Below are positions 1,767-19,900 of a stretch of DNA of 64,000 nucleotides, in pieces (the first letter of the stretch is position 1; every line of letters starts with the position of its first letter). The DNA lies in assembly GCA_020348925.1 (NCBI GenBank), contig CP070758.1, forward strand, positions 2,309,688 through 2,373,687. Direction: 5' to 3'. Both the position numbers and the translations under genes were made by a program. The stretch comes from Gemmatimonadota bacterium (GTDB lineage: Bacteria > JBHIER01 > G020348925). The notes beneath the pieces were generated by a model. That model worked only from the letters and a program-made list of their open reading frames with translations, ran no database searches and was not told where the DNA came from.

Positions 1767-4700
1767 ATGCGAAAAACAGTTTTGGGTATCTTTTTCTTTT
1801 TCATTGTGGCAGGCAGCGGTATTATCGATCATGGAATCGCGCAGGTTCAAAAGAATCCCAACGATTATCTTCAGGATGCGACACTGTCGGTGGAGTCTGA
1901 AGCCGGGATCCCTGGGAGTACGGACAATGTGGTTTCCATCTTCATGAATAATGGGGTGTCCGTGTACGGGGTCCAGTTCCGACTGGCATACAATCCCCAA
2001 GTGCTGGATGTGACTGATGTGACGCGGACAACCAGAACGAATCATGTCATCATTTTTGGATGGGGTGAACCCGAGCCCGGAATTGTCGAAGTGGCCATTG
2101 CCGATGTCTCCGCCCCTGTCGCAGGGACCTCAGGGTCGATTGCCGATTTTCACTTTGACGTACCTCCGAGTGTCCGCTGCGGTGATTTCGACATGACTTT
2201 GTCCAATGTCATCATCACGGATGTCTCAGGAGACTCTCTCGCCGGAGGATTCGACTGGTTTGACGGCGTGTTCAGCATCTCCCTTGCGGGTCGTGAAATC
2301 GCCCTATCGGATACAGAGCATAATTTCGGGCTGGTAAATACTGGGAGCTCTGCCCAGTGGGATCTGACGATATACAATGATGGTGAAGATCCCTTGGAGG
2401 TTACGAATATTGTTTCCTCTCACCCCGATTATACTGTGGACATGATGAGCTTTTTCGTCGGTTCCTGTGATAGTCAACAGGTCGAAGTCACTTTTTCTCC
2501 CGCTGCTGGTGGGATCATTGCAGGTCAGTTGACGGTTTCGAGCGATGATCCTGATGAACCGACAGTGCAGGTCAATCTGACCGGCGAGGGATGTGTCCCT
2601 CCGGAAATAGATACGGATTCGGTCTCTGTCTACTTTGGGGAGGTTCCTCTCGGCGGGTTTGCCGATGCAACGATCATCGTGTACAATCTCGGCTGCCAGA
2701 CACTCGATGTGGACGATGTGGATATTACCGGGGCGGATGCGATGCAATTCAGCATTGAGAGCGGGGGTGCGCCCTTCTCGGTTCTGGCGGGTCAGAGCGA
2801 GATTATCGAAGTGAGATTCAGCCCGACATCATGCGGGGCGCAAACGGCTCAGCTGGAGATCGACAGTGATGATCCTGATGAGGGGACAATTATTCTTCCC
2901 CTGACAGGAGATGGGACCTCCGTACCAAATATTGCTGTGACTCCTCTCACCGTGGACTTCGGGGTCGTTGATGTCGGCAGTGTCGTCGACACGACCATTA
3001 CTGTCGAAAATACAGGCTGCCTGGATCTGGTTGTGGACGATGTGAGCATTGACGGACCTGATGCCGGGAATTTTTCAATAATTTTTGGCGGGGATCCTTT
3101 CACCCTGAATTACGGTGAATCCCATGATATCCAAATACAGTTTGAGCCCACGGCCGGGGGATCGAAAAGCGGCGCGAGAAATCCTCTTCTGGCCAAGAAC
3201 GCCACGCTGCATGTGCAGAGCAATGATCCTGACCAGGGCGTGACGGATATCCCTTTGGCCGGCACTGAGTGTGAATATCCGGACATCCAGCTCAATCTGA
3301 CGGATGTGGACTTTGGTGTCGTCAATATGCCCCAATGGAAGGATACGACCATTGTGGTTTCCAACGACAGTTGCCAGACGCTGGATGTGGGAGTAACAAA
3401 CGTTGTGGGAGATGATGCCGATAATTTTGACATAATCGGTGGCGGCGCTCCCTTCTCAGTGGCCACCGGGAATACGCATAACATCGACATCCGGTTCACT
3501 CCCTCCTCGGACGGTCCGAAGAACGCCGTCCTGCAAATCTTCAATACGGCGCCAGGCAAGAGTCCTGCAAATGTCAATCTCAGCGGTGATGGATGTTCGC
3601 AACCGGACATCGATGTTATTCCTGATGCCGGGGACTACGGCGTCGTTGACATCGGGTCTTACGCGGACAAGAGCTTTTATGTGCATAATCTGGGGTGTCA
3701 GACGTTGGAGATCTCATCGATAGATCTTGGCGGAGACGACCCCACTCAGTTCTCAATTCTCGGGGATGATTCCTTTTCGCTTGCCGAGGGTGATTCGCAG
3801 GAGGTCGTGGTGCGGTTCGAACCGACGTCACCGGGGGCAAAAAACGCCGTGATGCAGGTTCACAGCAATGATCCGGACGAGGGGACGTTTAATGTCGATC
3901 TGATCGGTGGCGTGTGCGGAGTTCAGGACATCGCAGGCAATCCCCTGTCCTGGGATTACGGCAAGGTCAATCTGGGTGACGATGGGGATAAGATCTTCAC
4001 TGTTTCGAATGTGGGCTGCCAGAGTTTGACGGTCACCGGGACTGCACTCGTGGGAGCGGATAGTGACCAGTTCTCCTACTTCAGCGGTGAGGGCGGTTTC
4101 ACCCTGGGGCAGGGGGAGACGCACGATATCGGGATCCGCTTTTCACCCACATCGGGCGGAAACAAGAATGCCACATTGCAGATCAACAGTGACGATCCGG
4201 ATGAAGCGACGGTGGAAATCGACTTGACCGGAGAGGGATGTGAATCTCCGGATATAGAAGCGGAACCCATCGTCTGGGATTTCGGAGAGGTGAACGAGGG
4301 GGCCTTTGCGCAGAAGATCTTCACGATCTCGAATGACAGCTGTCAAACATTACATGTCACGGCCACGGATCTTGTGGGGGGCAATTCTGAGTTTACGTTC
4401 GTGAGCGGGGGAGGGGAATTCTGGGTGGTTCCCGGAGGAACGCATCAGATCAGAATCCAGTTCGCCCCTGAATCTGGAGGGACGAAGAGTGCCATTTTAC
4501 GGATTCACAGCAACGACCCTGACGAAGATCCTTTTAATATTCCCTTGGATGGTGAGGGGTGCGAGGCTCCGGACATTGATGTGAATTTCACCTCTATCGA
4601 TTTTGGCGCGGTTGACGGTGGGCTGTCGGTCGATACGACCGTCACTGTTTCCAACGACAGCTGTCAGACACTGCAGGTGACCCAGGCGACCATAACAGGA

Positions 4701-7700
4701 GCTGATGCCGAGGAGTTTGAGGTCGTCGTGGGGGGAGGGGGATTCCAGGTTCCTCAAGGACAAAATCAGCCCGTTGTAGTCCGTTTCGCGCCTGTGAATC
4801 CCGGGGCGAAAAATGCGATCCTGAGAATTACCAACAACGATCCTGATGAAGGCACGAAAGACATTCCCCTGAGCGGTTTCGCGAACGCCCCTGATATTGA
4901 GCTTTCGGCGACGAGTCACAATTACGGCAACGTGAATTTGGGCGGTTTTGCCGATTGGGTGCTGGTGGTGAGTAACGTTGGGAATAAGAATCTTAGTGTT
5001 TCCAACATCGTCTCCAACAGTGCCGATTTCGTTATCACGTCTCCGGTCTCTTTTCCGGTCGTGATCGCGGCCTCCGGGAATGTCAATGTCACCGTCCGAT
5101 TCACACCATCGACAGGGGGAACTCGGGTGGCAAATCTGACCATCACGAGTAACGATCCGGATGAACCGAGCCGGAACGTTTCCTTTACAGGTGTGGGCTG
5201 TGTTCTGCCGAACATCACCGTCGATCCGACCTCGTATAATTACGGCAAGGTCGCCCTGGGCGGTTATAAGGACAAAACGTTCGTTGTCTCAAATATCGGT
5301 TGCCAGAATTTGAATGTATCTTCCACAAGTATAACTGGGCCTGATGCCAGTCGTTACACCATATCCAGTGGCGGTGGCGCCTTCACCTTGGGCAAAGGGC
5401 AGACACGGAATGTCGTTATCCGTTTTGCACCGGTGACGGGAGGGAGTAAAACGGCCATCTTTCAAATCGTCAGCAACGATCCGGATGAGGATACTGTGAA
5501 AGTGACGTTGCAGGGTGAGGGATGTGTGAGCCCCAATATCGTCGTCGACCCGACCACCTGGGATTTTGGTACCGTGAATGTGGGGAGTTTTTCTGATATC
5601 ATCATCATCGTGTCGAATACAGGGTGCCAGGACCTCGTCGTGAGTGGAGCTAATCTCGTCGGAGGGAACCCTGATCAATTTTCCATTCGGAGTGGGGGGG
5701 GTGGTTTTACCGTATCCAGCGGCCAGACGCGAAATATTGAGGTCCGCTTCAGTCCGACCTCCGGTGGGATTAAAAACGCCGGAGTCCAAATTCTGAGCAA
5801 TGATCCAGACCAGGGTGGTGTGATCGTCACCCTGACGGGTAGGGGGTGTCCCTTTCAAGATATTTCCATCACGCCGGCATCCTGGGACTTCGGGATTGTT
5901 GACCTCGGAAATTATGAAGAAAAAACATTTGTTGTCTCCAATCAGGGGTGCCAGGATCTGCAGGTATTGGGGACAAATCTCGTGGGGGCGGATTCCGATC
6001 ATTTTGACATCATGAGTGGTGGAGGTGCTTACAGTATTGCTGGAGATGATACCCATGATGTCGTTATCCGTTTTACGCCGACAACAAGCGGGGCAAAGAG
6101 TATTGTTCTGAGAATCACATCTGATGATCCTGATGAGGGGACATACGATGTGACGATAACAGGGGGTGTTTGTTCTCATCCTGACATTGAAACGAATCCC
6201 GGTTCGTGGAATTACGGCTCTGTTGCGATCGGGGACTATGAGGAAAAGACGGTCACTGTTTCGAATACGGGGTGTCAGGTTCTGTCGCTGACCGGCATCG
6301 GTCTCGTGGGAGCGAATACGAACCAGTTCAGTATCACCAGCGGTAATATCACGATTGATCTCAATCACGGTGAGACGCACAACGTCGTGATCCGGTTCTC
6401 CCCGACTTCAGAGGGCACAAAGAGCGCTGGGCTCAGGATCAGTTCAAACGATCCTGACGAGAGCACCCTCACCGTGCCTCTCAACGGATATGGTTGCGGT
6501 GATCCCGATATTGATGTCGATCCGGCTTCTGTGAGCTATGGGAGCGTGAATGTTGGGAGCTCCAGTGATCGGACCATTACGATCTCCAATGTGGGGTGCC
6601 AGGTTCTCAACATTTCGGCGACAACTCTCACAGGGACCCATGCGACGCAATTCGACGTCGTAAGCGGGGGAGGAGGGTCAACGATTGTTAGTGGTGGTGC
6701 CCGGAACCTCATCGTGCGCTTCACACCAACTTCCGGTGGGGCGAAAACGGCCACACTGCAGATCCTTTCGGACGATCCGGATGAGGGGACCGTGCTCGTC
6801 CCGCTCACGGGCTCAGGTTGTGCAGAGGCCAACATATCCCTGAATCCGCTGGTGAAGAATTATGGAACCGTGAGTGTCGGCAGCAGCAGTCCTGGAACGT
6901 TTGTCGTTTCGAATACAGGGTGCCAGGATCTGCAAGTAACCGCCACAACAATTTTGGGGACAAACCACACTCAGTTCCAAATCGAGAGTGGGGGAGGGTT
7001 CTTCACTGTTGGGAGTGGACTGTCCCACAATATCGTTGTTCGATTTGTTCCGACATCCGGTGGTTTCAAGGAGGCCACACTCAGAATTCTCAGCAACGAT
7101 CCTGATCAAGGAGCCGTAGAAGCATCCCTCTCAGGGACTGGATGTTCATATTCGGACATCAGTGTGAATCCCACGTCTTGGAATTTCAACAGAATCGATG
7201 TGGGAAATTTCAACGAGAAAGTGTTTGAGGTGGCAAACGTTGGCTGTCAGAATCTCGTCGTATCGAGTACGAGCATTGTGGGAAGTGATCCGTCCCAGTT
7301 TCTTATTGCCGCTGGTGGTGGGGGGTTCACGCTTGGTGAGGGCCAAACCCACGAGATTCTTATCCAGTTTGTGCCGACATCGGGTGGGAGCAAAAGTGCT
7401 GTCTTTCAGATTCAGAGCAACGATCCTGACGAGAGCATTCGAAACATTTCACTGAGTGGGGAGGGGTGTCCGTACCAGGACATTTCGGTCAATCCGACAT
7501 CATGGAATTTCGGCACCGTTGACATCGGGAGTTTTGTCGAAAAAATCTTTGTGCTCTCAAATGTTGGGTGCCAGACCCTTCAGGTGACCGGAATGAACCT
7601 CGAGGGGCCCCACATGGATCAATTCTCCATTGTCAACGGTGATGGGAGCTTCACTCTTGTTGGAGGAGAGACGCGAAATGTGGTCGTTCGCTTTACACCA

Positions 7701-10700
7701 ACATCAGGCGGTGGTAAGACTGCAACCTTACGGATTTCCAGTAACGATCCTGACGAACTTGGGTTGGAAGTGCAGTTGAGTGGTGGTGTGTGTTTGGGGA
7801 CCGATATTACTGTGGATCCCACATCGTTGGACTTCGGGGTCGTGAACGTCAGCCTGGGGACACAGAGGACCGCCGTGGTCTCCAATACGGGATGTCAGCT
7901 TCTCCAAGTTTCAAGTGTAACTGTTACTGGTTCTGATGCGGTTCACTTTTCGGTAGTCAGTGGCGGAGGCTCCTTCTCAATACCTCAAGGAGAATCTCAC
8001 AATGTTATCGTGGGATTTGTTCCGTTATCCGGGGGTGGAAAAAACGCCATACTGCAAATTTTGAGTAATGATCCGGACGAAGGGACGAAAAATGTCCCGT
8101 TGAGTGGCACCGGATGCTCCCAACCGGACATTGCTGTGAACCCGTCTTCGTGGAACTACAGTGGCGTAGCGATAGGGGACCATGCGGACAAGGTCTTTAT
8201 CGTTTCCAATGAAGGTTGTCAAAATCTCTTGGTCTCGGGAACGACACTGGTTGGACCCGATGCCTCCCAGTTTGCTATTACGGGTGGTGGCGTGTTCACC
8301 GTGGTCCCTGGCGGGGCTCACAGTGTGGTTGTGACGTTTTCTCCGACCAGTGGAGGAGTAAAAACGGCTTCGCTTCTGATCCACTCAAACGATCCTGATG
8401 AGGAGGAGTATACGGTTCCCCTAACTGGTGGTGCTCTCAGTGCTGATATTCAGCTGTCCGCAACCAGCCACGATTTTGATGGTGCCCCTATAGGGCAACC
8501 GCAATATTGGATTCTGGAGATATCGAATGTGGGTGATGGTCATCTCACGGTCACGAGCATCCTGACTGATAGGACCGATTTCATTGTGTCCTATCCGACA
8601 TTTCCCCAGATCGTTCCTCCCGGTGCATTTGTGAGTGTCGCGATTGTTTTTACTCCCTCCGTCAGCGGTCTTATTACGGGCAATTTAACTATTGCCTCCA
8701 ACGATCTCGACGAACCGACCCGCATCGTGTCACTCCGTGGTCTCGGCCTCGTTCCGGATATAGAGCTGTCTGAGACTCGTCATGACTTTGGTGGCGTGGC
8801 CGTTGGAAGCACAACACAATGGATTCTCACCGTTACGAATTCGGGCACCGGGGATTTGAACGTCAGTGCTCTCGGATCGGATAATCCTGTGTTTGCGGTG
8901 GATGTCCCGTCGTTCACGGTTGCGTCTGGCGGGAGCCGTCTTGTGACGGTCACCTTTTCCCCGACAGCGGAGGGGCTCACAACAGGGCAGATAACCGTTC
9001 GGAGCAACGATCCGGATGAACCCGTGCGCTCTGTTATTCTGACAGGAGAAGGTCTGGTGCCTGATATTGAGGTGGTAACCAGTCACAATTTTGGAGAGGT
9101 GCCTTTGGGGAACTTTGGACAATGGACGATGACGGTATCGAACATGGGTACCGGACCCCTCATCGTCAGTGGAATTGGTTCCGATCATCCGGCCTTTACC
9201 ACCAGCCCGATCAACTTTACTGTGATGCCCGGCAGCAGCTACGACGCAATCGTGACATTTACGCCGTCCCAAGGAGGGGCAGCCTCCGGCCAGATTACGA
9301 TTGTGAGTAATGATCCGGATGAAGGGATGGTCGTCGTTTATGTTCTGGGGAACGGCTTGGTCCCCGACATATCCGTTCCTGTAACAACCTATGATTTTGG
9401 AGGCGTCGATGTCGGAGATTCGACAACGTGGGATTTTAATGTGCAAAACTTGGGGACAGGTGATCTCGTCGTTACGAGCATTCTTTCGAATAAAGCCGAT
9501 TTCATTGTCGAGCCGAAGAGTTTCACTGTACCGCCCGGTGCCTACCAGGTTGTTACGGTGACGTTTTTGCCTTCGATCGGTGGACTCATCTCAGGTCAAC
9601 TTGATATCTCCTCGAGCGATCCCGACGAGCCAACGGTCGCTCTCAGTCTGACCGGAACAGGACTGGAACCTGATATCGATCTCTCGGCAACGAGCCATGA
9701 TTATAACGGAATTCCACTCGGTCAATCGGCGAATTGGATACTCACAGTTTTTAATGTTGGAACAGGCGAACTGACCGTCAACGATATTGTATCGAGCAAC
9801 GCCGCCTTCCATGTCGACATCACCTCCTTCGTGGTGATGCCCAGCGGCAGTCGGAACGTGACCGTCACACTGACTCCTCCGATGGAGGGTTCGGTGTCCG
9901 GTCAATTGACCATTTATTCCAACGATCCTGACGAGCCGACGGTGTCGGTGATGCTGAATGGAGCGGGCCTGACACCTGATATTGAGATTCCGGTAACGGC
10001 CCATGACTTCGGCAACGTTGAAGTCAATACCTCTGCTGCATGGACTCTGCTCATTGAAAATGTCGGCGGGGCAGACCTGGTTGTCACGGATGTCAGATCC
10101 GATAATCCTGCTATGACCGTCGCCCTCTCCCTGCCTTTGATTCTGAGCCCAAGGAGCAGTGAGCATGTCCCTGTAACTTTTTCCCCGACGGAAGCGGTGA
10201 CGTATGAGGGCCAGCTGACTGTGACCAGTGATGATCCGGATGAACCCAATATAACGATCTCTTTGACCGGTGTGGGCGTGGGGGTGAGTGTCCATGTGAA
10301 TAACTTTGATGTCCTCGCCTATCAGGGCGTTGTGCTCCTGCGGTGGTCGATTGGGGCCGCCCACGATTGTATGGGTTTTCACCTCTATCGCAGCGAATCT
10401 TCCGACGACGACTACGAGCGATTAACGCATTTTCTGGTACCGTTGATCGTCAATGGAAATTATACATATCGGGATGCATCAATAACTGCGGACGGGACCT
10501 ACTACTATCGCTTAGGGGCAATGGATCTCAACGGCGGGGAGGAGGATATGGGTTTCGTGGTGGTGCGAGTGGTTGGATTCACGCCGAGCGATTTTGGTCT
10601 GGCTCAGAACTATCCCAATCCATTCAATCCTGATACGCGCATTACGTATACGCTGCCTGAGAGTGAGCGGGTGACGCTGTTTCTGTATAACACCCTGGGG

Positions 10701-10865
10701 CAAAAAGTGAGGGCGCTTGTGGACGAGTACCATGCGTCAGGACGATATACAGTCCTGTGGGATGGCCGGGATGACCTCGGCCGAAAAGTTGCCAGCGGGA
10801 TCTACTTGGCTGTTCTTCGCTCAGGAACACGTCTTGATAGCAAGAAGATGATTTTACTGAAATAA
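1767..10865 (+). CDS. Giant secreted protein (~3030 aa): signal peptide, N-terminal cohesin-like domain, 25 ASH/choice-of-anchor-D Ig repeats, FN3-like domain, T9SS type-A/FlgD-Ig CTD
   Basis: SD GGGAGG before ATG 1767 (ORF track starts at 1692). Signal MRKTVLGIFFFFIVAG. Cohesin-like VYGVQFRLAYNPQVL..GSIADFHFDV..DGVFSI. Repeats of the form DFGxVxxG..xSNxG..FxPxxxG..SNDPDE..LxGxG, counted by eye. CTD LAQNYPNPFNPDT..SKKMILLK. Confidence 0.9.
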   Translation: MRKTVLGIFFFFIVAGSGIIDHGIAQVQKNPNDYLQDATLSVESEAGIPGSTDNVVSIFMNNGVSVYGVQFRLAYNPQVLDVTDVTRTTRTNHVIIFGWGEPEPGIVEVAIADVSAPVAGTSGSIADFHFDVPPSVRCGDFDMTLSNVIITDVSGDSLAGGFDWFDGVFSISLAGREIALSDTEHNFGLVNTGSSAQWDLTIYNDGEDPLEVTNIVSSHPDYTVDMMSFFVGSCDSQQVEVTFSPAAGGIIAGQLTVSSDDPDEPTVQVNLTGEGCVPPEIDTDSVSVYFGEVPLGGFADATIIVYNLGCQTLDVDDVDITGADAMQFSIESGGAPFSVLAGQSEIIEVRFSPTSCGAQTAQLEIDSDDPDEGTIILPLTGDGTSVPNIAVTPLTVDFGVVDVGSVVDTTITVENTGCLDLVVDDVSIDGPDAGNFSIIFGGDPFTLNYGESHDIQIQFEPTAGGSKSGARNPLLAKNATLHVQSNDPDQGVTDIPLAGTECEYPDIQLNLTDVDFGVVNMPQWKDTTIVVSNDSCQTLDVGVTNVVGDDADNFDIIGGGAPFSVATGNTHNIDIRFTPSSDGPKNAVLQIFNTAPGKSPANVNLSGDGCSQPDIDVIPDAGDYGVVDIGSYADKSFYVHNLGCQTLEISSIDLGGDDPTQFSILGDDSFSLAEGDSQEVVVRFEPTSPGAKNAVMQVHSNDPDEGTFNVDLIGGVCGVQDIAGNPLSWDYGKVNLGDDGDKIFTVSNVGCQSLTVTGTALVGADSDQFSYFSGEGGFTLGQGETHDIGIRFSPTSGGNKNATLQINSDDPDEATVEIDLTGEGCESPDIEAEPIVWDFGEVNEGAFAQKIFTISNDSCQTLHVTATDLVGGNSEFTFVSGGGEFWVVPGGTHQIRIQFAPESGGTKSAILRIHSNDPDEDPFNIPLDGEGCEAPDIDVNFTSIDFGAVDGGLSVDTTVTVSNDSCQTLQVTQATITGADAEEFEVVVGGGGFQVPQGQNQPVVVRFAPVNPGAKNAILRITNNDPDEGTKDIPLSGFANAPDIELSATSHNYGNVNLGGFADWVLVVSNVGNKNLSVSNIVSNSADFVITSPVSFPVVIAASGNVNVTVRFTPSTGGTRVANLTITSNDPDEPSRNVSFTGVGCVLPNITVDPTSYNYGKVALGGYKDKTFVVSNIGCQNLNVSSTSITGPDASRYTISSGGGAFTLGKGQTRNVVIRFAPVTGGSKTAIFQIVSNDPDEDTVKVTLQGEGCVSPNIVVDPTTWDFGTVNVGSFSDIIIIVSNTGCQDLVVSGANLVGGNPDQFSIRSGGGGFTVSSGQTRNIEVRFSPTSGGIKNAGVQILSNDPDQGGVIVTLTGRGCPFQDISITPASWDFGIVDLGNYEEKTFVVSNQGCQDLQVLGTNLVGADSDHFDIMSGGGAYSIAGDDTHDVVIRFTPTTSGAKSIVLRITSDDPDEGTYDVTITGGVCSHPDIETNPGSWNYGSVAIGDYEEKTVTVSNTGCQVLSLTGIGLVGANTNQFSITSGNITIDLNHGETHNVVIRFSPTSEGTKSAGLRISSNDPDESTLTVPLNGYGCGDPDIDVDPASVSYGSVNVGSSSDRTITISNVGCQVLNISATTLTGTHATQFDVVSGGGGSTIVSGGARNLIVRFTPTSGGAKTATLQILSDDPDEGTVLVPLTGSGCAEANISLNPLVKNYGTVSVGSSSPGTFVVSNTGCQDLQVTATTILGTNHTQFQIESGGGFFTVGSGLSHNIVVRFVPTSGGFKEATLRILSNDPDQGAVEASLSGTGCSYSDISVNPTSWNFNRIDVGNFNEKVFEVANVGCQNLVVSSTSIVGSDPSQFLIAAGGGGFTLGEGQTHEILIQFVPTSGGSKSAVFQIQSNDPDESIRNISLSGEGCPYQDISVNPTSWNFGTVDIGSFVEKIFVLSNVGCQTLQVTGMNLEGPHMDQFSIVNGDGSFTLVGGETRNVVVRFTPTSGGGKTATLRISSNDPDELGLEVQLSGGVCLGTDITVDPTSLDFGVVNVSLGTQRTAVVSNTGCQLLQVSSVTVTGSDAVHFSVVSGGGSFSIPQGESHNVIVGFVPLSGGGKNAILQILSNDPDEGTKNVPLSGTGCSQPDIAVNPSSWNYSGVAIGDHADKVFIVSNEGCQNLLVSGTTLVGPDASQFAITGGGVFTVVPGGAHSVVVTFSPTSGGVKTASLLIHSNDPDEEEYTVPLTGGALSADIQLSATSHDFDGAPIGQPQYWILEISNVGDGHLTVTSILTDRTDFIVSYPTFPQIVPPGAFVSVAIVFTPSVSGLITGNLTIASNDLDEPTRIVSLRGLGLVPDIELSETRHDFGGVAVGSTTQWILTVTNSGTGDLNVSALGSDNPVFAVDVPSFTVASGGSRLVTVTFSPTAEGLTTGQITVRSNDPDEPVRSVILTGEGLVPDIEVVTSHNFGEVPLGNFGQWTMTVSNMGTGPLIVSGIGSDHPAFTTSPINFTVMPGSSYDAIVTFTPSQGGAASGQITIVSNDPDEGMVVVYVLGNGLVPDISVPVTTYDFGGVDVGDSTTWDFNVQNLGTGDLVVTSILSNKADFIVEPKSFTVPPGAYQVVTVTFLPSIGGLISGQLDISSSDPDEPTVALSLTGTGLEPDIDLSATSHDYNGIPLGQSANWILTVFNVGTGELTVNDIVSSNAAFHVDITSFVVMPSGSRNVTVTLTPPMEGSVSGQLTIYSNDPDEPTVSVMLNGAGLTPDIEIPVTAHDFGNVEVNTSAAWTLLIENVGGADLVVTDVRSDNPAMTVALSLPLILSPRSSEHVPVTFSPTEAVTYEGQLTVTSDDPDEPNITISLTGVGVGVSVHVNNFDVLAYQGVVLLRWSIGAAHDCMGFHLYRSESSDDDYERLTHFLVPLIVNGNYTYRDASITADGTYYYRLGAMDLNGGEEDMGFVVVRVVGFTPSDFGLAQNYPNPFNPDTRITYTLPESERVTLFLYNTLGQKVRALVDEYHASGRYTVLWDGRDDLGRKVASGIYLAVLRSGTRLDSKKMILLK

Positions 10866-10973
10866 ATAATCTATGCGGGGGGGTCGTAGGAATGGCGTTT
10901 TTATTCATGCTTTTCTGTGTTTTCAACAAAATCAAAGATTATGGTGCATGATGCGAGTGAAAGGAGACTCAGG

Positions 10974-13900
10974 ATGACTAAGAGAGGAACTGCATGCGTC
11001 ATCGTACTCATTCTTGTGTTTGGAGTGCTCTCAATGGGAGAAGTATTTGCCCAAAGTCCTACTCCACTGCCTGAGATTCATCTGTCGACAAGCAGCCATG
11101 ACTATGGCTTGGTGAAAGTGGGATACAGTCAGGACTGGGTGCTTCGGGTTGCGAATCGCGGTCTGGGACGATTGACGATTTTCGATATCACTTCTGATCA
11201 TCCCGATTTTCAAATTTCAGATCCGGTAAGCTTTCCTCAATATGTCAACTATTCTGGGGGGAGGACTCCGGACAGTCTTTTCGTGACGGTTACGTTTACT
11301 CCTTCCACAGTCGGTGAAATCACCGGGCGACTGACCGTTCTGAGCAATGATGCTGATGAGGGGACTTTATACGTCTCCCTCGAAGGACAGGGGACAGCTC
11401 CTGATATTAATATTTTTGAAGTGATCCACGATTTCAATGGGGTCGTTGTCGGCAGCGCTTTAGACTGGACGCTTGTCGTTCATAATACGGGCCCGGTCGA
11501 TCTCGTTCTGACGGAAATTACTTCGAGTAATCCCAATTTTATAGTGGTCGTGCCGAATCATTTCCCGGAGTCCATTCCTCCCGGAGGTCGGATTGATGTT
11601 GTCATCAGTTTTGCTCCAATTTCGGGCGGTGTAAAAACAGGCAACCTCATTATCCGCAGTGATGATCCTGATGAGAGCGTTTATTATGTGTCATTATTGG
11701 GAGAAGGATTGGCGGCGGATATTGATGTATCGACAATGGCCTATGATTTTGGCGAGCTTATGTCAGGGACGTCATCATCTTGGGAACTTACGGTCTATAA
11801 TAGGGGAACATTGGATCTCATTATTAGCCAGGCGATTATTTCGCCCCCGATTTTTTCCGTCGTTTCGCCCCTCTTTCCTCAAACGGTGGAACCGAATGGA
11901 AGTCTGACTGTGGAAATCGTGGTCAGTCCGGAGGCAGTGGGGGACATCGACGGAACCTTGACGTTGCGCAGTAACGATCCTGACGAGAGTGAGCTCATTG
12001 TGTCATTGACAGGGACGGTGATTCCCAGATCACCTGATATTGTCCTGTCAGCCGTGAGTCATAACTTTGGCGATGTCCTTCTGTCCTCATCAGTGACGTG
12101 GGATTTTCAAATTCAAAATACAGGTCTGATCGATCTGACAGTGAATTCCATTCTCTCAGATCAGGCTGAGTTCTCCATCCTCACGCCTTCGTTTCCTCAG
12201 CAGGTTGCTCCGGACGAAAGCCTCAACGTCACGGTTGCTTTTACCCCTACAGCAGTGGGAGCTCGATCCGGAATTCTCACAGTGAGGAGTGATGATCCTG
12301 ACCAAGGAGTGCTGACGCTTTCAATTTTTGGTCGCGGTGTTGCTCCGAAAGTTGAGGTGTCGGCCAGGAGTTATGATTTTGGAAACGTCCTGGTGGGAAG
12401 CTCTTCCGCCTGGAATGTAACGCTCTCGAATGTCGGTACAGCGGATTTGGTCATTGAATCCGTTGTCTCTTCGCATTCCAATTTTCTTGTGGCCGATGCT
12501 CAATTTCCGAGAACGATCCCTCCAGGTGGCAGCATAATACAGACCGTTCTCTTTACACCGTCTTCGTTGGGTCTGATAGCGGGGAACCTGACCGTCAACA
12601 CAAATGATCCCGATGAATCCGTGCTCCTCATCGCTCTGAATGGTATCGGTGTGAAACCCGACATTTATGTATCGGCGGACAGCCACGATTTTGGCGATGT
12701 GCACTTAGGCAGTTCCGGGTATTGGGATTTAGGGATTCAAAATTTGGGAACGGCACCCTTGACCGTAACCGGGCTCTTTTCGAGCGCCTCCTCATTCACC
12801 GTCTCTGCTCCCTCCTTTCCCCAGACGGTGGATCCCGGGGAAATTCTTTCCGTGACAGTGGTCTTTACTCCGGCGAGTCTTGGAGAGATTACCGGGAACC
12901 TAACAATTATCAGCAACGACCCGGAGCAGGAGACGCTCGTGGTTCAAGTGCGCGGCACCGGCTCAGCACCTCCTGCGCCCCGCATTCACATATCCGAGAA
13001 CACGCATGACTTTGACTTGGTAAACCTTGGGGCATCGACCGAATGGCGGGTTACGGTATATAATAGGGGCGACCTCGATCTCATCGTCAGCAGTGCGAGC
13101 TCAGACAATCCCGATTTTCAAGTTATCAGTCCACCAGTATTTCCCAACAGCATTGATCCCCTGTCCCACATGCACATCACAATTGCCTTTGCGCCTTCTG
13201 GAGCCGGCACGCGCACGGGCCACATCACCATCGGGAGCAACGATCCGGACAGAGCGCTTGTTTCACTCGCGGTTGCGGGATACGGCTCTGCTCCTGAAAT
13301 TGAACTCTCCTCTTTGAGCCACGACTACGGAAAGGTGCTGCTTTTAAATCCTGAGCCTTGGACGATGAGGGTTACGAATCAGGGCTCGAAGGATTTGCTC
13401 GTCACAGAAATTACCTCCGATCAGGAGGAGTTCATTATTGCATCAGCGGGCTTTCCCCGAACCTTGCCGCCGGGCACGAACCTGGATGTGGTGGTGACCT
13501 TTCTTCCCCAGGTGGAGGGGGAGAGAAGGGGCACAGTGACGGTGTTCAGCAACGATCCGAACGAACCGTTGCTCACAGTTCCGGTCGTCGGTGTCGGGGC
13601 GAGTTCCAAAATACACGTCTCGGAATTCGATCATGATTTTGGTTTGACCGCCGTGGGTGATACATCACTCTGGACCATTATTGTCACAAATGTGGGTGAG
13701 GAAGATCTTGTGGTCGACAACATCACATCCTCCCATCCGGATTTCATCGTTCTTTCTCCGCGCTTTCCACAGAGGATCACCTATTATTGTGGTATTGAAG
13801 TGACTCTTGCTTTTGTCCCATCATCGGACGGTCAGAAGAGAGGACATCTGTCCGTGAACAACAATGATTCCTTTCAGCCCTGCGCACCGCTCGAGCTTGT

Positions 13901-16900
13901 TGGGATTGGTATTGCGCCGGACATTGCGTTCTCGACCCTCAGTCAGAACTTCGGGGATGTTCTTCTGGGGCAGTCTCGTTCAGGGAGATTTCGGATCTCA
14001 AATGTGGGGACCATAGATCTGGTCGTGGACAGCATCGTCTCGAATCACACCGATTTCTCAATCACCTCGCCTGCCTTTCCGCAGGTGATAGGCCCGGGCG
14101 GTGAGATTGAAGTGACAACGCGATTTGCTCCCACCGCCCTGGGTGAGCGGACGGGTCATTTTACAGCGTACAGCGATGATTATGATGAGGCTCAACAACT
14201 CATTGATGTGAGGGGTCGGGGCGTCTCCCCGGAGATCGAACTCTCGGCATGGAGCCACGACTTCGGGCAGATCTGGGCCGGCGATTGTACCCTCTGGTCC
14301 TTCACCATTACGAATCAGGGAAGCTTCGATCTCCTCATCTCCGATATTGCGTGCGCTCTTCCGGAATACGCGATCGTCGGCGTCACATTTCCCCAGAAGA
14401 TCTACCCCCGCTGTGAGCTTGAGGTGCCCATCTCCTTCTGTCCCCAAGCCGTGGGTGTTGTGGGGTGCGACCTCGTCATCGAGACGAACCATCCCGATGT
14501 CGGCGACGTTACAATACAGTTGATGGGGGAGGGAGTACTGCCCGAAATTGCTGCCTCAGCCCTGGAGCATAATTTCGGAGGTCTGTCCCTCGGTGAATCG
14601 GCCGATTGGGTCCTGACGGTCTCGAACAGCGGGACCGCGCAGTTGACTGTTGCGAGTATCGTATTGACGAATACGGTCGATTTTGCGATACCCGAATACA
14701 CCTTTCCTGTCCTCCTTGATCCTCAGGGATCGTTGGACGTTCCCATTGTCTTTGAACCACAAACTTCGACCCACAAGGAATCCGATCTTATTATTACGAG
14801 CGATGATCCGTTCAATCCTGTCGTGAGCGTTCATCTGAGAGGAAAGGGATTGGTCAAGGATATTCTTCTTTCTGACAAAAGTCATGACTTCGGCTCCGTC
14901 GCTGTTGGCCAACGATCTGATTGGTCCTTCACCATTACGAATCTTGGACAACTTCCTCTTGACATAACCGAGGTTATTCCGAGTCTTTCCGATTTTAGGG
15001 TGACTGCCCCACTTTTTCCCCACACTATTGAGGGTGGCAGAAACGTCGAGGTGACCGTTTCCTTCGTTCCGACCGATATCGGGATTCGATCGGGGACTCT
15101 TGAAATTCAGAGCACGGACCCTGACGAGGGATCGATGATTGTGACCCTGGTTGGTGTGGGGTTCGCTCCTGATATCGGGCTGTCCGCTTACAACTATGAT
15201 TTTGGCCAGGTGTTGGTTGGAGAGTGTGTGCAGTGGCCGATGCGGGTCAATAATACCGGAACCTTCGACCTTGAGGTTTCAAGCATAACCCTGAATCATC
15301 CGGATTTCAATGTTCAGGGTCCAACCCTACCTTTTTCCATTGGACCGGGCAACAGCCAGGAGTTGATCGTAACCTACTGTCCGTCTGCCGCCGAAACCGA
15401 AGAATGCAGTCTCAGCATGTGTGTCGATGGTCTCCTTGATCGATGTGTGTCCGTTGATCTCAGGGGGACTGGTATTGTACCGGATATTGCTTTCTCAGCA
15501 CCGAGTCATAATTATGGTCCTGTCTATGTCGGGGGGACCTCCAATTGGGTCCTCATGATTTTGAACGTGGGAACCGCTGATCTCACCGTGTCCGGTGTCG
15601 TTTCCGAGGGAGGTGCATTCGTGGTCACGGCTCCCACTTTTCCCCGGACGATCCCGCCGGAGGGATCGGTGGGTGTCGTGGTGGCCTTTACGCCTGAGGA
15701 GGTTGGGGCCGTCTCGGGGAATCTTGTCGTGAGCAGTGATGATCCTAACGAATCGGAGGTGACGATCCCCCTGGAAGGGTCGGGGGTTCTTCCGCAGTTC
15801 ATTGTTTCGGACACCTTCCATGATTTCGGAAACGTTATCACCGGAGATTCGGCGACATGGTCATTCACCGTCTCGAATGCTGGCGGCGCGCGAATGACGA
15901 TTTCTGCGATTGCGTCCGACAATGCCGATTTCAGTATTACGGGGCCTGCTTTCCCACGAACTTTAGAACCTGATGGGACGGTGGATGTCGGCGTACTCTT
16001 TGCCCCGCGCTCCTCGGGAGAAAAGTCCGGGATTCTGTCGATAACGACGGACGATCCCAGTGCACCGGTCTTCGCCATAGAATTGACGGGTAAGGCTGTC
16101 GTCACCGGTTTCCAGTTGTCTGAGAACCAGCATGATTACGGCAAGGTTCTCGTGGGCCAGACCTCAGCGTGGACAATGATTCTTTCAAACGGCGGCCGGA
16201 CGGAGTTGATGGTTCTGAGCATAGGGTCAGACCTGCCCGAATACGTGGTCATATCCGATGAGTTTCCCCTGGCTATCGCCCCCCAGGAGAGTATCGAGGT
16301 GGGCGTCGATTTTACGCCTTGGGTCATGGGAATCTTCGACGGTACCCTGACCATAGAGATATTGGATTTCGGCGACGATCCGCCGACGGTCCAGCTGACA
16401 GGGGAGGGCGTCCAGCAGGATATCGAGGTGCTTGAGCTCTCCCATGATTACGGCAACGTGGTGGTCGGTGATTCCTCTTCCTGGTTTTTAACGATAAATA
16501 ACGCGGGGACCGCGGACCTGATCATTGACACCATCTACACGGATCATGATGATTTTCAAGTGGACGGTTTGACATTCCCCATCGTTCTTCCCGCCGACAG
16601 ACTGCCCCCTGTCCCGGACATCCCCGTGACCTTCAAACCTTCATCGGCCGTGGCCGCCGAAGGGCACCTGACTATTTTGAGTGATGATCCTGATGAGGGT
16701 GAGATTGTGGTGACTCTCACAGGATACGGTGTCGACGCCAATGTCTATGCGTCGGATTCGTATCATGATTTCGGGGACGTCCAACTCAGAGGATCGGAGG
16801 AGTGGACCTTCCGACTGTACAATATCGGGAAAAGTGATCTGCGTGTTGAACATGTCCTCTCCGGATGCGAGGCCTTTACGGTGACGGACCCTGAATTTCC

Positions 16901-19900
16901 CCAGACACTTGGGAGTGGAACACAGCTGGATATCACTGTGACCTTCACCCCTTTGACGACCGACCTTGTGACCTGCACGCTGAATGTCCTCACCGACGAT
17001 CCTGACGAGGGCGTTTTGAATGTCGTCGTTACCGGCCGCGGGGTCGGACGGGGGATCGCCGTCACGGTCAGAGGGATCGGATTCGGGCCGGTCCGCATCG
17101 GCAGTTCGGTGGTCAGGACATTGACCGTGTATAATAATGGGTTGCTCGAGGCAACGGTGGATGATATTTTGTCGACCCATACCGATTTTCAGATTGTTGC
17201 TCCGCTCTTTCCGTACACCATCGGACCGCAGGACAGTGTCGACGTGACGATTGCCTTCACGCCCTCCGAACCGGGTTTGGCTGAGGGTTCCCTGAACATC
17301 GGGAGCAACGATCCGGATCAACCGCTTCTGTCCGTCACGGTACACGGTCAGGGCATCACGCCTGAGATCAACCTCTCGGCTGAGCATCACGACTTCGGAA
17401 AGATTAATGTCGGCAGTTTCTCCAACTGGGTGTTCATGATTCAAAACAGAGGGACGGCCGATCTGGCGGTCAGCTCCGTCCTGTCCGATAATCCGCAATT
17501 GACCGTTGTGTCACCGAACTTCCCCAGGACGATTCCCACGGACGACAGCTGTGGCGTCGTGGTCCGCTTTGCACCTGTGGATATGGGGCCCGCATCGGGC
17601 ACGGTGACGATCATCAGCGATGATCTCGACGAGAGCACGCTCACTGTCGCATTACGGGGTGAAGGTGTTCTTCCGGATATTGCCTTGTCAGCGTTGCATC
17701 ACGATTACGGTGAGGTCGAAGCAGGTGATACGTCCCTCTGGGTGCTGACCGTTTCCAACGTGGGAAGCGCGAATCTTGTGGTGGAGAGCATGTTCAGTGA
17801 TCACTCGGATTTTGCTGTTCTCTCACCGAGTTTCCCCCAGGTCATAGAACCGGAAGCACATGTAATGGTAACAGTGGCCTTTCGCCCCACGTCGGGTCAA
17901 GAACGGAGTGGTCGTCTGTCCGTGTACAGTGATGATCCCGACGAATCGGTGCTGGAAGTGGGCCTCACCGGACGGGGCATTGCCTCGGACGTGCATGTCG
18001 ATGTTCGGGATCATGATTTCGGTGGCGTTGTGGTGGGTGATTCGACGTCGTGGATGCTGCCCCTGCGTAACATCGGCCGGGCATCATTGACCGTTCACAG
18101 TGTGAACACGGAGGGGAAGGATTTTAATGTCGTCTCTCCAATCTTTCCGCAGACGGTTGCACCCGGACAGCATCTTGACGTTTCAATACAATTTCAGCCT
18201 TCGGACTTGGGACCTATCGAGGGAACCGTAACGGTTCTGAGCAGTGATCTCTCTGAACCGACTGTCATAATCCCTGTCCGAGGCGAAGGATTCATTGAGC
18301 CTGTTTTGCAGATCGTAGACGGTTTTGGGGATCCCGGGAGTGCTGGAAATAAAGTATCCGTCCACCTCTATACGCCTCTGGACATCAGTGCTCTTGAGTT
18401 TGGCCTCACATACGATTCGCAGGTTTTGACGATTACTGACGCGCAGCTGGGTGCTGATGCCAGCCACATGGGTATCTTTGATATCGACTTTCCCCTTGCG
18501 AACCGGGTCTTCATTCACATTGGGGATGCGGATGGGGGGGTGATCAGTCCGCGTTCAGGTACTGTAACTGAGTTCACCTTTCAGGTCGCCGCCGAAGCAC
18601 CAATGGGACAACTCCCGTTGGTGCTCACAGATGTGGTCCTCTACGAAGGCGACGGTACCCCGGTGCCGGTTGTCCCTCAAGACGGAGTGTTTACTGTTAC
18701 TCTTCCGGATATCGTCGTACCTCACCGGGTTTACGATTATGGCGATGTCTCTGTGAATCGCCCTGAGGATTGGCCGTGTCCTATGTGGAACTCAGGGACG
18801 AAGGATCTTATTATCAGCGGAATAACGGTGGATCATATCGATTTCTATACGATCGAACCGAGCTTTCCCTGTACCTTAGCGGTCGCCGAGAGCAGTCTTG
18901 TCATTTTCAGATTTGCACCCTCTGCAATCGGCCCAATTTCGGCCTCAGCAATCGTAGAGAGCAATGATCCTGACGAAGGGGCAGTCACAATTTCTCTCGG
19001 TGGCGTGGGGATCAAACCCGATATCTGCATGGGAGAAATTATTCACGATTTTGGTGACGTCCTGGCGGGTACCTCGTTCACCTGGCCGGCTCTCATAGCA
19101 AACTTGGGCAAGGGAGCATTGACGGTTGACAGTATTTTTACGGTCGGATCCGATTTTTCTGTGGAAGCGCTTACCTATCCGTTTGTTGTCATGGAGAGCG
19201 AAAGTATCTTTGTCGGTGTGACCTTTACTCCGGCTCTGGCTGGGGCGATCCGCGGAAGTCTGGTGGTTGTGAGCAACGATCCCGATGAGGAACGGTTTGT
19301 CCTTCCGCTTTGGGGTCGCGGTGTTGCTCCTGACATCGATCTGTCCGCTGTGAGCCACGATTTCGGGGAAGTTGATGTCGGTCAGATAGCCGATGAGGAC
19401 TTTCTCATTTACAACAGGGGAACAGCAGAGTTGACAATAGACTCTTTGAAAGCTCAGCCAGACGCGTTTACGTTCTTTGGGCCGGATTTCCCCGAGACGG
19501 TAGCTCCTGGCGACAGTTTCGCACTGTCGGTCTCCTTTGCTCCGACCTTCATGGGGGAGATCTCAGGCGATCTGACTCTTTTCAGCGACGATCCCGATGA
19601 AGGAGAGTTCATGGTCTTTCTCAGTGGCGTCGGCGCAGCGCCAAAGATTGAATCCTCGGCCACAAGCTATATCTTCGGACGGGTGAAGTTGGGTGAATCT
19701 GAGACGTGGGAATTTCTTATTTCGAATGTGGGAACCCGGGACCTCATTATCGAATCTGTTGAGCCTGATACCTCAGATTATGCGGTGACCGTCGAGGAGG
19801 AGTTTCCCCTTATCCTTGAGCCGGGCGAGGATATTGTGGTGGGTGTGATCTTCCAGCCCTCGGCCGTGGGGATGATCAGCGGCCGATTGATCATACGGTC

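What the first reader, a model, noticed from the sequence alone, without database searches (positions are those of the whole stretch)
2560..8560. Cysteines co-vary across Ig-repeat junctions: disulfide-stapled rods with an unstapled hinge
Seen: in the 1767-10865 protein, a Cys at the end of repeat n (GxGC/GxxC) is always matched by a Cys in the NxGC/NDSC loop of repeat n+1. This holds at 16 junctions (1/2, 3/4 to 7/8, 9/10 to 18/19). Both are lost together at 8/9 (LSGFAN / SNVGNK) and at 19/20 through 24/25 (e.g. TGGAL / SNVGDG). Pairing within a repeat does not fit, because repeats 8, 9 and 19 each carry only one of the two. At the single exception (2/3) the linker Cys is missing, but repeat 2 has a unique Cys in its FSPTSCG loop, a plausible compensatory partner. 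Inference: junction-spanning disulfides lock two rigid segments (repeats 1-8 and 9-19) separated by one free joint, followed by an unstapled CTD-proximal stalk. This could be a redox-sensitive mechanical design in what appears to be an anaerobe.
Basis: partly seen in the sequence, partly recalled or inferred. Interest (0 to 1): 0.8.

Follow-up and report, generated by a model that had tools for sequence, protein, structure and literature searches.

The report
Paired cysteines staple a giant surface stalk
A 3,032-residue secreted surface protein of an uncultured anaerobic bacterium carries a strictly matched pair of cysteines in 17 of its 25 Ig-like repeats; they probably tie each linker to the next repeat, but the genome shows no known enzyme for making such bonds.

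Summary
The gene at 1767-10865 encodes a type IX secretion (T9SS) cargo with 25 choice-of-anchor D (ASH/PapD-like Ig) repeats. A boundary Cys and a Cys 34 residues downstream, in the B-C loop, occur together at 16 boundaries and are absent together at 8. At junction 2/3 the boundary Cys is missing and repeat 2 has a Cys in the E-F loop.

- The 25 boundaries are not independent. All Cys-bearing repeats form one paralogue clade (type A). The "hinge" and "stalk" repeats are the family's ordinary Cys-less type B.
- Rephased to start at the Cys, every type A repeat but one holds both cysteines.
- Pairing is well supported by bookkeeping. All 37 Cys are conserved at 64% identity. In five orthologues every B-C-loop Cys has exactly one candidate partner.
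- Strand assignments (DSSP) on AlphaFold2 models place the E-F-loop Cys beside the vacated boundary position.
- Against a constitutive disulfide: the near-complete genome has no DsbA, DsbB, VKOR or terminal oxidase. Its exported proteins show no even-Cys bias.
- SG-SG distances could not be measured. Hinge and rigidity claims are untested.

Verdict: a new variant of covalently stapled adhesin repeats, of moderate interest.

The parts
1767..10865 (+). Gene for the 3,032-aa surface protein P0001. Order of parts: signal peptide, cohesin-like module, 25 choice-of-anchor D repeats, a pre-CTD domain, and the T9SS C-terminal sorting domain (CTD).
   Evidence: NF012200 choice_anch_D scores 1264 bits against a cut-off of 45, with 25 stretches.
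1932..2177 (+). N-terminal cohesin-like module (aa 56-137). The conserved C138 lies just after it.
   Evidence: PF00963 Cohesin, 20.4 bits, below the cut-off of 24.1, so a weak match. C138 is conserved in P0005.
2289..2591 (+). Repeat 1, type B. It has no boundary Cys and no B-C-loop Cys. It carries C234 in the D'-E loop.
2592..4883 (+). Repeats 2-8, type A. Each has a boundary Cys and a B-C-loop Cys 34 residues apart, except repeat 3, which lacks the boundary Cys.
2832..2834 (+). Codon of C356. This is position 81 of repeat 2, the last residue of the E-F loop, replacing the usual Gly of PTSGG. It is the proposed substitute partner for C418.
   Evidence: DSSP: E-F loop = model residues 180-184, strand F = 185-195, strand G = 202-212, ending at T384; the same arrangement in 5 of 5 orthologues.
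2916..2918 (+). Codon of T384, the boundary position of junction 2/3 where the Cys is missing.
3018..3020 (+). Codon of C418, the B-C-loop Cys of repeat 3 that has no boundary partner.
4884..5198 (+). Repeat 9, a single type B (Cys-less) repeat that interrupts the type A array. Its position, 10 type A repeats before the C-terminal type B block, is kept in the full-length orthologues P0005, P0155 and P0156.
5199..8435 (+). Repeats 10-19, type A. All ten carry both cysteines.
   Evidence: The AlphaFold2 model of repeats 8-11 has pLDDT 92.5.
8436..10277 (+). Repeats 20-25, type B, Cys-less. This is the same subtype as the 26 scorable repeats of the neighbouring gene.
10611..10853 (+). T9SS type A C-terminal sorting domain (aa 2949-3029).
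   Evidence: TIGR04183, 29.3 bits against a cut-off of 23. FlgD_ig and Por_Secre_tail matches.
10917..21983 (+). Neighbouring 3,688-aa T9SS cargo P0002, with about 28 type B choice-of-anchor D repeats and a cohesin domain. It serves as the internal Cys-less comparison.

Best explanation
P0001 is a T9SS-secreted stalk, roughly 100 nm long by my estimate, made of 25 choice-of-anchor D (ASH/PapD-like Ig) repeats. It carries a cohesin-like module at its distal end.

Seventeen repeats belong to one lineage-specific paralogue clade (type A). This clade acquired a cysteine pair:
- one Cys at the domain boundary, which is the last residue of strand G of repeat n and the first residue of the 3-4-residue linker;
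- one Cys in the B-C loop of repeat n+1.

The two thiols most likely bond to each other. This closes a 34-residue loop around strands A, A' and B, and fixes the end of repeat n to the base of repeat n+1. It is the same kind of A-B 'staple' that acts as a mechanical lock in chaperone-usher pilins.

At one junction the boundary Cys has moved to the neighbouring strand, at E-F-loop position 81 of the upstream repeat. That junction would hold a true domain-to-domain bond.

Shown: the pattern, its conservation, the one-partner bookkeeping and the secondary-structure positions. Inferred: spatial proximity, the oxidised state, and any stiffening effect. The Cys-less repeats 1, 9 and 20-25 are the family's default type and need not be hinges.
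For: - Pattern and fixed spacing of 34 residues.
- C35 is invariant and C1 is present in 16 of 17 type A repeats, whose mean column identity is 55%.
- All 37 of 37 Cys are conserved in orthologue P0005 at 64% identity. Cys is the best conserved residue type in the repeat region, 35 of 35.
- In the same-family genome G001, all 11 type A repeats seen have both Cys, and both are lost at the A-to-B junction.
- P0155 and P0156 (59% identity, 29 repeats) have 20 canonical pairs plus 1 E-F-loop variant each.
- In all five orthologues the only Cys at position 81 sits in the repeat directly upstream of the only boundary lacking Cys.
- In P0155 the repeat downstream of that boundary is not the counterpart of P0001 repeat 3: 38% identity against 53% to repeat 14, and no 10-residue insert.
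- The same pair recurs in a distant protein, P0129, in domains that do not follow a homologous repeat.
- DSSP on two AlphaFold2 models (pLDDT 92.5 and 91.4) puts the boundary Cys at the end of strand G, Cys35 in the B-C loop, and C356 just before strand F, whose hairpin partner G ends at T384.
- The pair is rare in the family. In one search, excluding P0001 and P0005: 15 both, 6 and 6 single, 2014 neither. In one search: 0 of 71. In the own genome only P0001 has it.
- Precedent: the Fim pilin A-B strand disulfide as a mechanical lock (PMC6048123, passages read).
Against: - The 96.3%-complete single-contig genome has no match to DsbA (PF01323), Thioredoxin_4 (PF13462), DsbB or VKOR. It has no haem-copper oxidase and no cytochrome bd oxidase.
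- My crude exported-protein set shows no even-Cys bias: 321 even to 362 odd, 47% even, against 46% for cytoplasmic proteins. The 199 T9SS-CTD proteins give 99 even, 93 odd and 7 with none.
- Published work links such a bias to the presence of DsbA with DsbB or VKOR (PMC12453122 and PMC2823432, passages read).
- No coordinates were available, so no SG-SG distance was measured.
- pTM values of 0.53 and 0.50 mean the interdomain geometry is not confidently predicted.
- Elsewhere in the family single cysteines do occur at these columns: 6 and 6, 12 and 6.
- The 25 boundaries reduce to very few independent events.
- Caveats on the negative evidence: 20,500 bases of the genome read N; my signal-peptide heuristic has no positive control; and two exported TlpA-like AhpC/TSA-redoxin proteins exist.
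Confidence: 0.55

Rival explanations
1. The two cysteines are neighbours but stay reduced in this strict anaerobe. They would then act as a thiol pair, for example as a bidentate metal or sulfide ligand site, or as an oxidant-sensing or sacrificial site at each junction, and not as a standing disulfide.
For: - No DsbA, DsbB, VKOR or terminal oxidase was found.
- There is no even-Cys bias in exported proteins or T9SS cargo.
- T9SS cargo here are Cys-rich and not Cys-excluding.
- The one-partner bookkeeping fits any paired function, not only a disulfide.
Against: - Two thiols alone make a poor metal site, and no third conserved ligand was found. Position 70 alternates between His and Arg, and Q36 is absent from the P0129 version (my reading of the alignments).
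- Relocating one Cys to the adjacent strand is what one expects of a disulfide partner.
- The same-family genome G001 encodes a lipobox-bearing DsbA-like selenoprotein with a UxxC motif, so thiol-disulfide chemistry in this lineage's envelope is not excluded. That contig could, however, be contamination (7%).
Confidence: 0.25
2. One reading: disulfide-locked rigid rods (repeats 1-8 and 9-19) joined by a free hinge at 8/9 and followed by a flexible stalk, acting as a redox-sensitive mechanical device.
For: - The Cys pattern itself.
- The single type B repeat sits in a conserved position, 10 type A repeats before the terminal type B block, in P0005, P0155 and P0156.
- Anaerobic lifestyle and lack of Dsb enzymes would make the oxidation state depend on the environment.
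Against: - Junctions without Cys are the norm in the family: 2014 of 2041 scorable repeats, and all 26 scorable repeats of neighbour P0002. Lacking Cys therefore does not imply flexibility.
- Type B linkers are one residue shorter.
- Repeat 1 is itself type B, so 'rod 1' starts at repeat 2.
Confidence: 0.15
3. The pattern is only shared ancestry. One ancestral repeat happened to have two cysteines and was amplified, and the two residues do not interact.
For: All Cys-bearing repeats form one clade, and each pairs with its orthologue, so the array is older than the species split. The nominal p-value ignores this.
Against: - Paralogues are only about 40-55% identical, yet C35 is present in 17 of 17 and C1 in 16 of 17.
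- 35 of 35 Cys are conserved between orthologues, against 31-89% for other residue types.
- The single missing boundary Cys is always accompanied by a Cys at the spatially adjacent position 81.
- The pair recurs in the distant protein P0129.
Confidence: 0.07

Closest known systems
Conserved A-B strand disulfide of chaperone-usher pilins (FimA/F/G/H), described as a 'mechanical lock' (PMC6048123, passages read)
   Same: It is an Ig-like (PapD-type) fold in a load-bearing bacterial surface fibre. One Cys lies at the start of strand A and one after strand B, enclosing the A-B segment. Reduced domains are mechanically weaker.
   Different: Fim subunits are separate polypeptides joined by donor-strand exchange, and they need DsbA. 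Here the repeats are covalently tandem. The first Cys sits on the boundary with the previous domain, so the bond also pins the linker. No DsbA, DsbB or VKOR was found. No sequence homology was tested or claimed.
[quoted passage not shown]
   Same: A very long tandem Ig-like array in which each repeat carries a conserved intramolecular covalent staple. That adhesin has alternating domain types.
   Different: Those cross-links lie within a domain: first to last strand, or adjacent strands of one sheet. They occur in sortase-anchored Gram-positive proteins. Here the fold is choice-of-anchor D/ASH, export is by T9SS, the Cys sits on the linker, and one junction appears to use a domain-to-domain variant.
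Choice-of-anchor D domain proteins (NCBIfam NF012200) and ASH/HYDIN-type Ig domains (Pfam PF15780, PF22544, PF22073)
   Same: P0001 is a member. It gives 25 domain matches. The closest solved folds are the ciliary central-apparatus ASH proteins, entries 7som, 9ijj and 7sqc.
   Different: The family is normally Cys-free at these two columns; 2014 of 2041 repeats (P0001 and P0005 excluded), with 490 rows having gaps dropped; 1211 of 1270, with 195 dropped; 71 of 71, with 23 dropped. The pair is specific to P0001-type orthologues, P0129, and one repeat of P0219.

Membership tests
Choice-of-anchor D domain (NF012200) | Match to the NCBIfam profile above its curated cut-off | tested here: met
   1264.2 bits against a cut-off of 45, with 25 stretches.
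ASH / HYDIN-VesB-CFA65 Ig-like fold (PF15780, PF22544, PF22073) | Pfam matches above the gathering score, and a beta-sandwich fold resembling solved ASH domains | tested here: met
   576-634 bits with 22-23 stretches; all-beta models with pLDDT 92.5 and 91.4; the top Foldseek hits are ciliary central-apparatus proteins (E 1e-27), the CEP192 SPD-2 domain, and P. gingivalis 2qsv.
T9SS type A cargo (TIGR04183 C-terminal sorting domain) | A C-terminal sorting domain above the cut-off at the extreme C-terminus, plus an N-terminal signal peptide | tested here: met
   29.3 bits against a cut-off of 23, at aa 2949-3029 of 3032. The N-terminus MRKTVLGIFFFFIVAGSG... looks like a signal peptide by eye. 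A CTD profile built finds 199 such proteins in the genome.
Disulfide-stapled Ig-like repeat (Fim-type A-B lock) | Two cysteines flanking strands A and B | tested here: met
   DSSP on the models: the boundary Cys is the last residue of the preceding strand G, five residues before strand A, and Cys35 lies in the B-C loop.
Disulfide-stapled Ig-like repeat (Fim-type A-B lock) | Sulfur atoms within bonding distance | not testable with these tools
   Structure prediction returns no coordinates, and none appear in /data. There is only a topological argument.
Disulfide-stapled Ig-like repeat (Fim-type A-B lock) | A periplasmic thiol oxidase system (DsbA with DsbB or VKOR) in the host | tested here: not met
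   0 matches in G000 (96.3% complete, 20,500 N). A tblastn search with the G001 Sec-DsbA-like protein gave no hit below E 1.6. Only two TlpA-like redoxins were found.
Disulfide-stapled Ig-like repeat (Fim-type A-B lock) | The cysteines are oxidised in the native protein | not testable with these tools
   This needs non-reducing mass spectrometry or thiol labelling.
Cohesin module (PF00963) | Pfam match above the gathering score | tested here: inconclusive
   P0001 aa 56-137 scores 20.4 bits against a cut-off of 24.1. Neighbour P0002 scores 42 bits, above the cut-off, and the upstream gene has Dockerin_1 at 32.3 bits against 22.9.

The most novel reading that the evidence does not exclude
In a strict anaerobe with no recognisable disulfide-forming machinery, the 17 (in relatives 21) linker-to-loop thiol pairs of a roughly 100-nm cohesin-bearing stalk are reduced in the anoxic habitat. 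They close only on contact with oxidants. The whole stalk would then switch stiffness or extensibility with ambient redox state, making it a secreted, enzyme-independent redox-mechanical switch. One junction would be re-engineered by evolution into a true domain-to-domain bond.
Probability: 0.12. Interest if true: 0.7.

Novelty: new variant of a known kind. Interest (0 to 1): 0.4.

Why it matters
Covalent staples such as isopeptide, ester, thioester and disulfide bonds are how bacteria make long surface fibres withstand force. They are known mainly from Gram-positive adhesins and chaperone-usher pili.

Here the same idea appears in a different fold (choice-of-anchor D/ASH), a different export route (T9SS) and a different position, from the linker to the next domain's B-C loop. 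It comes with a natural "swap" experiment, in which the Cys has moved to the adjacent strand, that argues for real pairing.

The host appears to lack DsbA, DsbB, VKOR and any terminal oxidase. That raises a concrete and testable question about whether and how anaerobes outside the well-studied phyla oxidise secreted proteins.

The type A and type B repeats of one protein also give a ready-made matched pair for single-molecule mechanics.

Tried and rejected
- **SG-SG distances.** Both AlphaFold2 jobs succeeded, but coordinates are not returned or laid in /data. Only DSSP-based topology could be used.
- **Sequence search of solved structures** found only the Hydin, FAP74 and FAP47 ASH domains. 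Foldseek found no bacterial choice-of-anchor D structure with a described disulfide.
- **The search for related loci with alignment A1** failed because the alignment has no conserved 7-10-column stretch. The rerun with a single protein returned 18 loci, none with either Cys (0 of 71 repeats; 23 rows with gaps dropped). It gave no close named relative.
- **Literature.** A search for 'choice-of-anchor D' returned 3 papers, none structural (search listing only). A search for 'OS_HP2' returned only rice-gene papers. The NF041425 OS_HP2 (seleno)protein match was therefore not followed up.
- **Metal-site idea.** I looked for a conserved third ligand and found none. Position 70 alternates between His and Arg.
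- **Dedicated oxidase next to the gene.** The neighbours are an M16 peptidase, a geranylgeranyl reductase-like protein, an Omp85/PD40 protein and others. None has a thioredoxin fold.
- **First alignment for the second model** (A3) was mis-registered by overlapping windows. I replaced it with A4.
- **Complex prediction** was not used, because the question is not protein-protein binding.
- **Even-Cys analysis** rests on my own crude gene calls and signal-peptide heuristic, with no positive-control genome.

Full report
**What is there**

The frame 1767-10865 (+) translates without stops to 3,032 residues. A longer ORF from 1692 is possible, but the 1767 start gives a typical signal peptide.

- NCBIfam finds 25 choice-of-anchor D domains (NF012200, 1264 bits against a cut-off of 45) and a T9SS type A C-terminal sorting domain (TIGR04183, 29.3 bits against 23).
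- Pfam reads the same repeats as ASH, HYDIN-type or Cep192-type Ig-like domains. It also gives a weak N-terminal cohesin match, 20.4 bits, below the cut-off.
- The next gene (10917-21983, 3,688 aa) is a second T9SS cargo with about 28 repeats of the same family and a cohesin domain. The gene running into the window start has a dockerin and a T9SS CTD.

P0001 is therefore a long secreted stalk in a cohesin/dockerin surface system.

**Checking the observation**

The 37 cysteines are at the positions listed. Segmentation gives 25 repeats.

- A boundary Cys (GxGC) and a Cys exactly 34 residues further on (NxGC or NDSC) are both present at 16 boundaries: 1/2, 3/4-7/8 and 9/10-18/19.
- Both are absent at 8 boundaries: before repeat 1, at 8/9, and at 19/20-24/25.
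- At 2/3 the boundary residue is T384, C418 is present, and repeat 2 has the unique C356 in FSPTSCG.

Pairing the boundary Cys with the downstream loop Cys gives 1 mismatch in 25. Pairing it with the upstream loop Cys gives 5. The nominal hypergeometric p is 8.3e-6.

**Why that p-value overstates the case**

The alignment of the units shows two subtypes.
- Type A comprises repeats 2-8 and 10-19. They are 107-108 aa long (repeat 3 has 118), with a three-residue insert and a QFSIxSGGG motif.
- Type B comprises repeats 1, 9 and 20-25. They are 101-105 aa long, with Trp at position 26 and a linker one residue shorter.

If each unit starts at the boundary Cys, 16 of 17 type A repeats hold both cysteines and 8 of 8 type B repeats hold none. 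The statement that "pairing within a repeat does not fit" therefore depends on the chosen phase.

A FastTree of the units (branch supports not inspected) shows three things:
- All Cys-bearing repeats fall in one clade, sister to Cys-less type-A-like repeats of other proteins.
- Repeat 9 groups with the type B repeats of P0001 and P0002.
- Each P0001 repeat pairs with its counterpart in orthologue P0005.

The pattern therefore reflects about one gain, amplification by tandem duplication, and then retention.

**Evidence that the two cysteines are nevertheless real partners**

1. *Conservation among paralogues.* The 17 type A paralogues have a mean column identity of 55%. C35 is invariant and C1 is present in 16 of 17.
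2. *Conservation between orthologues.*
   - P0005 is 64% identical and conserves 37 of 37 cysteines. In the repeat region Cys is the most conserved residue type, 35 of 35, against 31-89% for the others.
   - Fragments from G001, the only same-family genome found among 60 relatives, show both cysteines in all 11 type A repeats seen. Both are lost at the A-to-B junction.
3. *Bookkeeping.* In P0001, P0005, P0043, P0155 and P0156 every B-C-loop Cys has exactly one candidate partner. P0155 and P0156 are 59% identical to P0001 and have 29 repeats, with 20 canonical pairs each. The only Cys at E-F-loop position 81 sits in the repeat just upstream of the only boundary that lacks Cys. That is repeat 2 then 3 in P0001, P0005 and P0043, and repeat 6 then 7 in P0155 and P0156.
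4. *The swap may have occurred in a different context.* In P0155 the repeat downstream of that boundary is not the counterpart of P0001 repeat 3. It is 38% identical to repeat 3 against 53% to repeat 14, it has no 10-residue insert, and it falls in a different tree clade. The upstream repeats may be orthologous (38% identity; same broad clade but not sisters). I therefore cannot say whether the swap arose once or twice.
5. *Independent recurrence.* The distant protein P0129 alternates Cys-pair domains (NC-PPQL...NIGC, spacing 33) with Cys-less domains. Its Cys-pair domains do not follow a homologous repeat. This shows that the first Cys belongs, in evolutionary terms, with the downstream domain.

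**Structure**

Two AlphaFold2 models were built from alignments of the window's own four-repeat windows. They cover repeats 8-11 and 1-4, with pLDDT 92.5 and 91.4 and pTM 0.53 and 0.50.

DSSP gives the following strands per unit: A 6-8, A' 13-19, B 24-32, C 38-46, D 53-57, D' 62-64, E 69-76, F 82-92 and G 99-109.

- The boundary Cys is the last residue of strand G of the preceding repeat. For example, model residues 204-214 correspond to aa 1135-1145, and in the second model residues 94-104 end at C276.
- Cys35 lies in the B-C loop.
- By strand parity the N-terminus and the B-C loop are at the same end of the sandwich.
- C356 is the last E-F-loop residue (model residue 184). Strand F (185-195) pairs with strand G (202-212), which ends at T384.

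By hairpin register, C356 therefore neighbours the vacated boundary position. It would give a true domain-to-domain link between the E-F loop of repeat 2 and the B-C loop of repeat 3.

These are inferences from secondary structure. Coordinates are not exposed, so no SG-SG distance exists.

Sequence and fold searches of the PDB find only eukaryotic ciliary ASH proteins, the CEP192 SPD-2 domain, P. gingivalis 2qsv and generic tandem-Ig adhesins.

**How common the pair is**

The family is very large, with 76,432 representatives at E <= 0.001.

| Set examined | Both Cys | Boundary only | Loop only | Neither | Gap rows dropped |
|---|---|---|---|---|---|
| Best 150 representatives plus P0002, excluding P0001 and P0005 | 15 | 6 | 6 | 2014 | 490 of 2,579 hits |
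| 95 further proteins from the word-index search | 41 | 6 | 12 | 1211 | 195 |
| 18 genome loci | 0 | 0 | 0 | 71 | 23 |

- In the first set, all 15 repeats with both cysteines are in P0043 and P0129.
- In the second set, 40 of the 41 are in P0155 and P0156.
- In the own genome only P0001 has the pair, among 33 proteins with such repeats.

Single cysteines at either column do occur in other, often Cys-rich, lineages, so the coupling is not universal.

**Evidence against a standing disulfide**

- The genome is one contig of 5.04 Mb, 96.3% complete, with 20,500 bases reading N.
- It has no match to VKOR, DsbB, Thioredoxin_4 or DSBA. It has none to haem-copper or cytochrome bd oxidases.
- Using my own crude gene calls (3,713) and a signal-peptide heuristic, 786 predicted exported proteins gave 321 even and 362 odd Cys counts, 47% even. 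Cytoplasmic proteins gave 46%.
- Of 199 proteins with a T9SS CTD, 99 are even, 93 odd and 7 have none.
- Published work ties an even-Cys bias to possession of DsbA with DsbB or VKOR (PMC12453122 and PMC2823432, passages read).

Caveats:
- The heuristic has no positive control.
- Two exported TlpA-like redoxins exist. The review read notes an AhpC/TSA-family oxidase in Streptococcus gordonii.
- The same-family genome G001 (87% complete, 7% contamination) encodes a lipobox-bearing DsbA-like protein with an in-frame TGA at a UxxC motif. It has no homologue in G000 by tblastn, and DsbB and VKOR were not found in G001.

**Reading**

The best-supported explanation is a lineage-specific cysteine pair that ties the domain boundary to the B-C loop of the next repeat and encloses strands A, A' and B. 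This is analogous to the A-B strand disulfide "mechanical lock" of Fim pilins (PMC6048123). It also resembles the one-cross-link-per-repeat design of giant Gram-positive adhesins (PMC10619420).

Whether the bond is formed constitutively, only on oxidant exposure, or not at all (a thiol pair with another role) is open, because the host lacks known oxidases.

The "hinge" and "stalk" are type B repeats, the family default, and nothing here shows they are more flexible. The position of the single interrupting type B repeat is, however, conserved in the full-length orthologues P0005, P0155 and P0156.

I found no description of this pair in the literature I could search. One search returned three papers mentioning the family, seen as a search listing only. 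One search was also checked.

Noticed in passing
window 3-1523 (tail of a 1,686-aa gene), 1932-2177, and 10917-21983: This locus encodes T9SS cargo with cellulosome-type modules. The upstream gene has Dockerin_1 (32.3 bits against a cut-off of 22.9) plus a T9SS CTD. P0002 has Cohesin (42 bits). P0001 has a weak cohesin-like N-terminus. Together they suggest a cohesin-dockerin surface scaffold exported by T9SS in an FCB-lineage anaerobe.
   Followed up: partly
whole genome G000 (window = C1:2309688-2373687): A profile built from the three local CTDs finds 199 proteins ending in a T9SS C-terminal sorting domain, an unusually large cargo set. These proteins are Cys-rich (median about 6-7 Cys) and show no even/odd bias.
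   Followed up: partly
L034 (G001:C294:1300-2700), minus strand 344-1399: The same-family genome encodes a DsbA-family protein with a lipobox-type signal (…LLLSLGGC…) and an in-frame TGA in the redox motif, read as FQUPYC. It is a likely exported selenocysteine-containing thiol oxidoreductase. No homologue was found in G000.
   Followed up: partly
window 2178-2180 (C138), 2466-2468 (C234), 10368-10370 (C2868): Three further cysteines lie outside the repeat-pair scheme and are also conserved in P0005. C234 lies in the D'-E loop at the N-terminal end of repeat 1. C138 lies at the end of the cohesin-like module, so the two could form a cohesin-to-repeat-1 link. C2868 has no obvious partner, which leaves the total Cys count odd at 37.
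   Followed up: no
P0001 aa 2538-2630 (window 9378-9656) and other type B repeats: NCBIfam NF041425, 'OS_HP2 family (seleno)protein', matches at 173 bits, above its cut-off of 100. This selenoprotein family is therefore related to choice-of-anchor D repeats. Where its Sec/Cys sits relative to the pair described here was not determined. The literature search was unproductive.
   Followed up: partly
P0031 and P0129 (proteins): Other lineages of the family carry different conserved Cys patterns. P0031 has about 7-8 Cys per repeat, including VGQC (A'-B loop) and RFCPQS (E-F loop). The first domain of P0129 has the same extra pair. Cysteine decoration of this fold has therefore evolved repeatedly.
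   Followed up: no
window 3165-3200 approx. (P0001 aa 466-470): Repeat 3 has a 10-residue insertion (…SKSGARNPLLAK…) in the E-F region that the model predicts as disordered (pLDDT below 50). It is present in P0005 and P0043 but not in the Cys-less-boundary repeat of P0155.
   Followed up: no
genome G000: 20,500 bases of the laid genome read N because they are withheld. All 'not found' statements about this genome carry that caveat.
   Followed up: no
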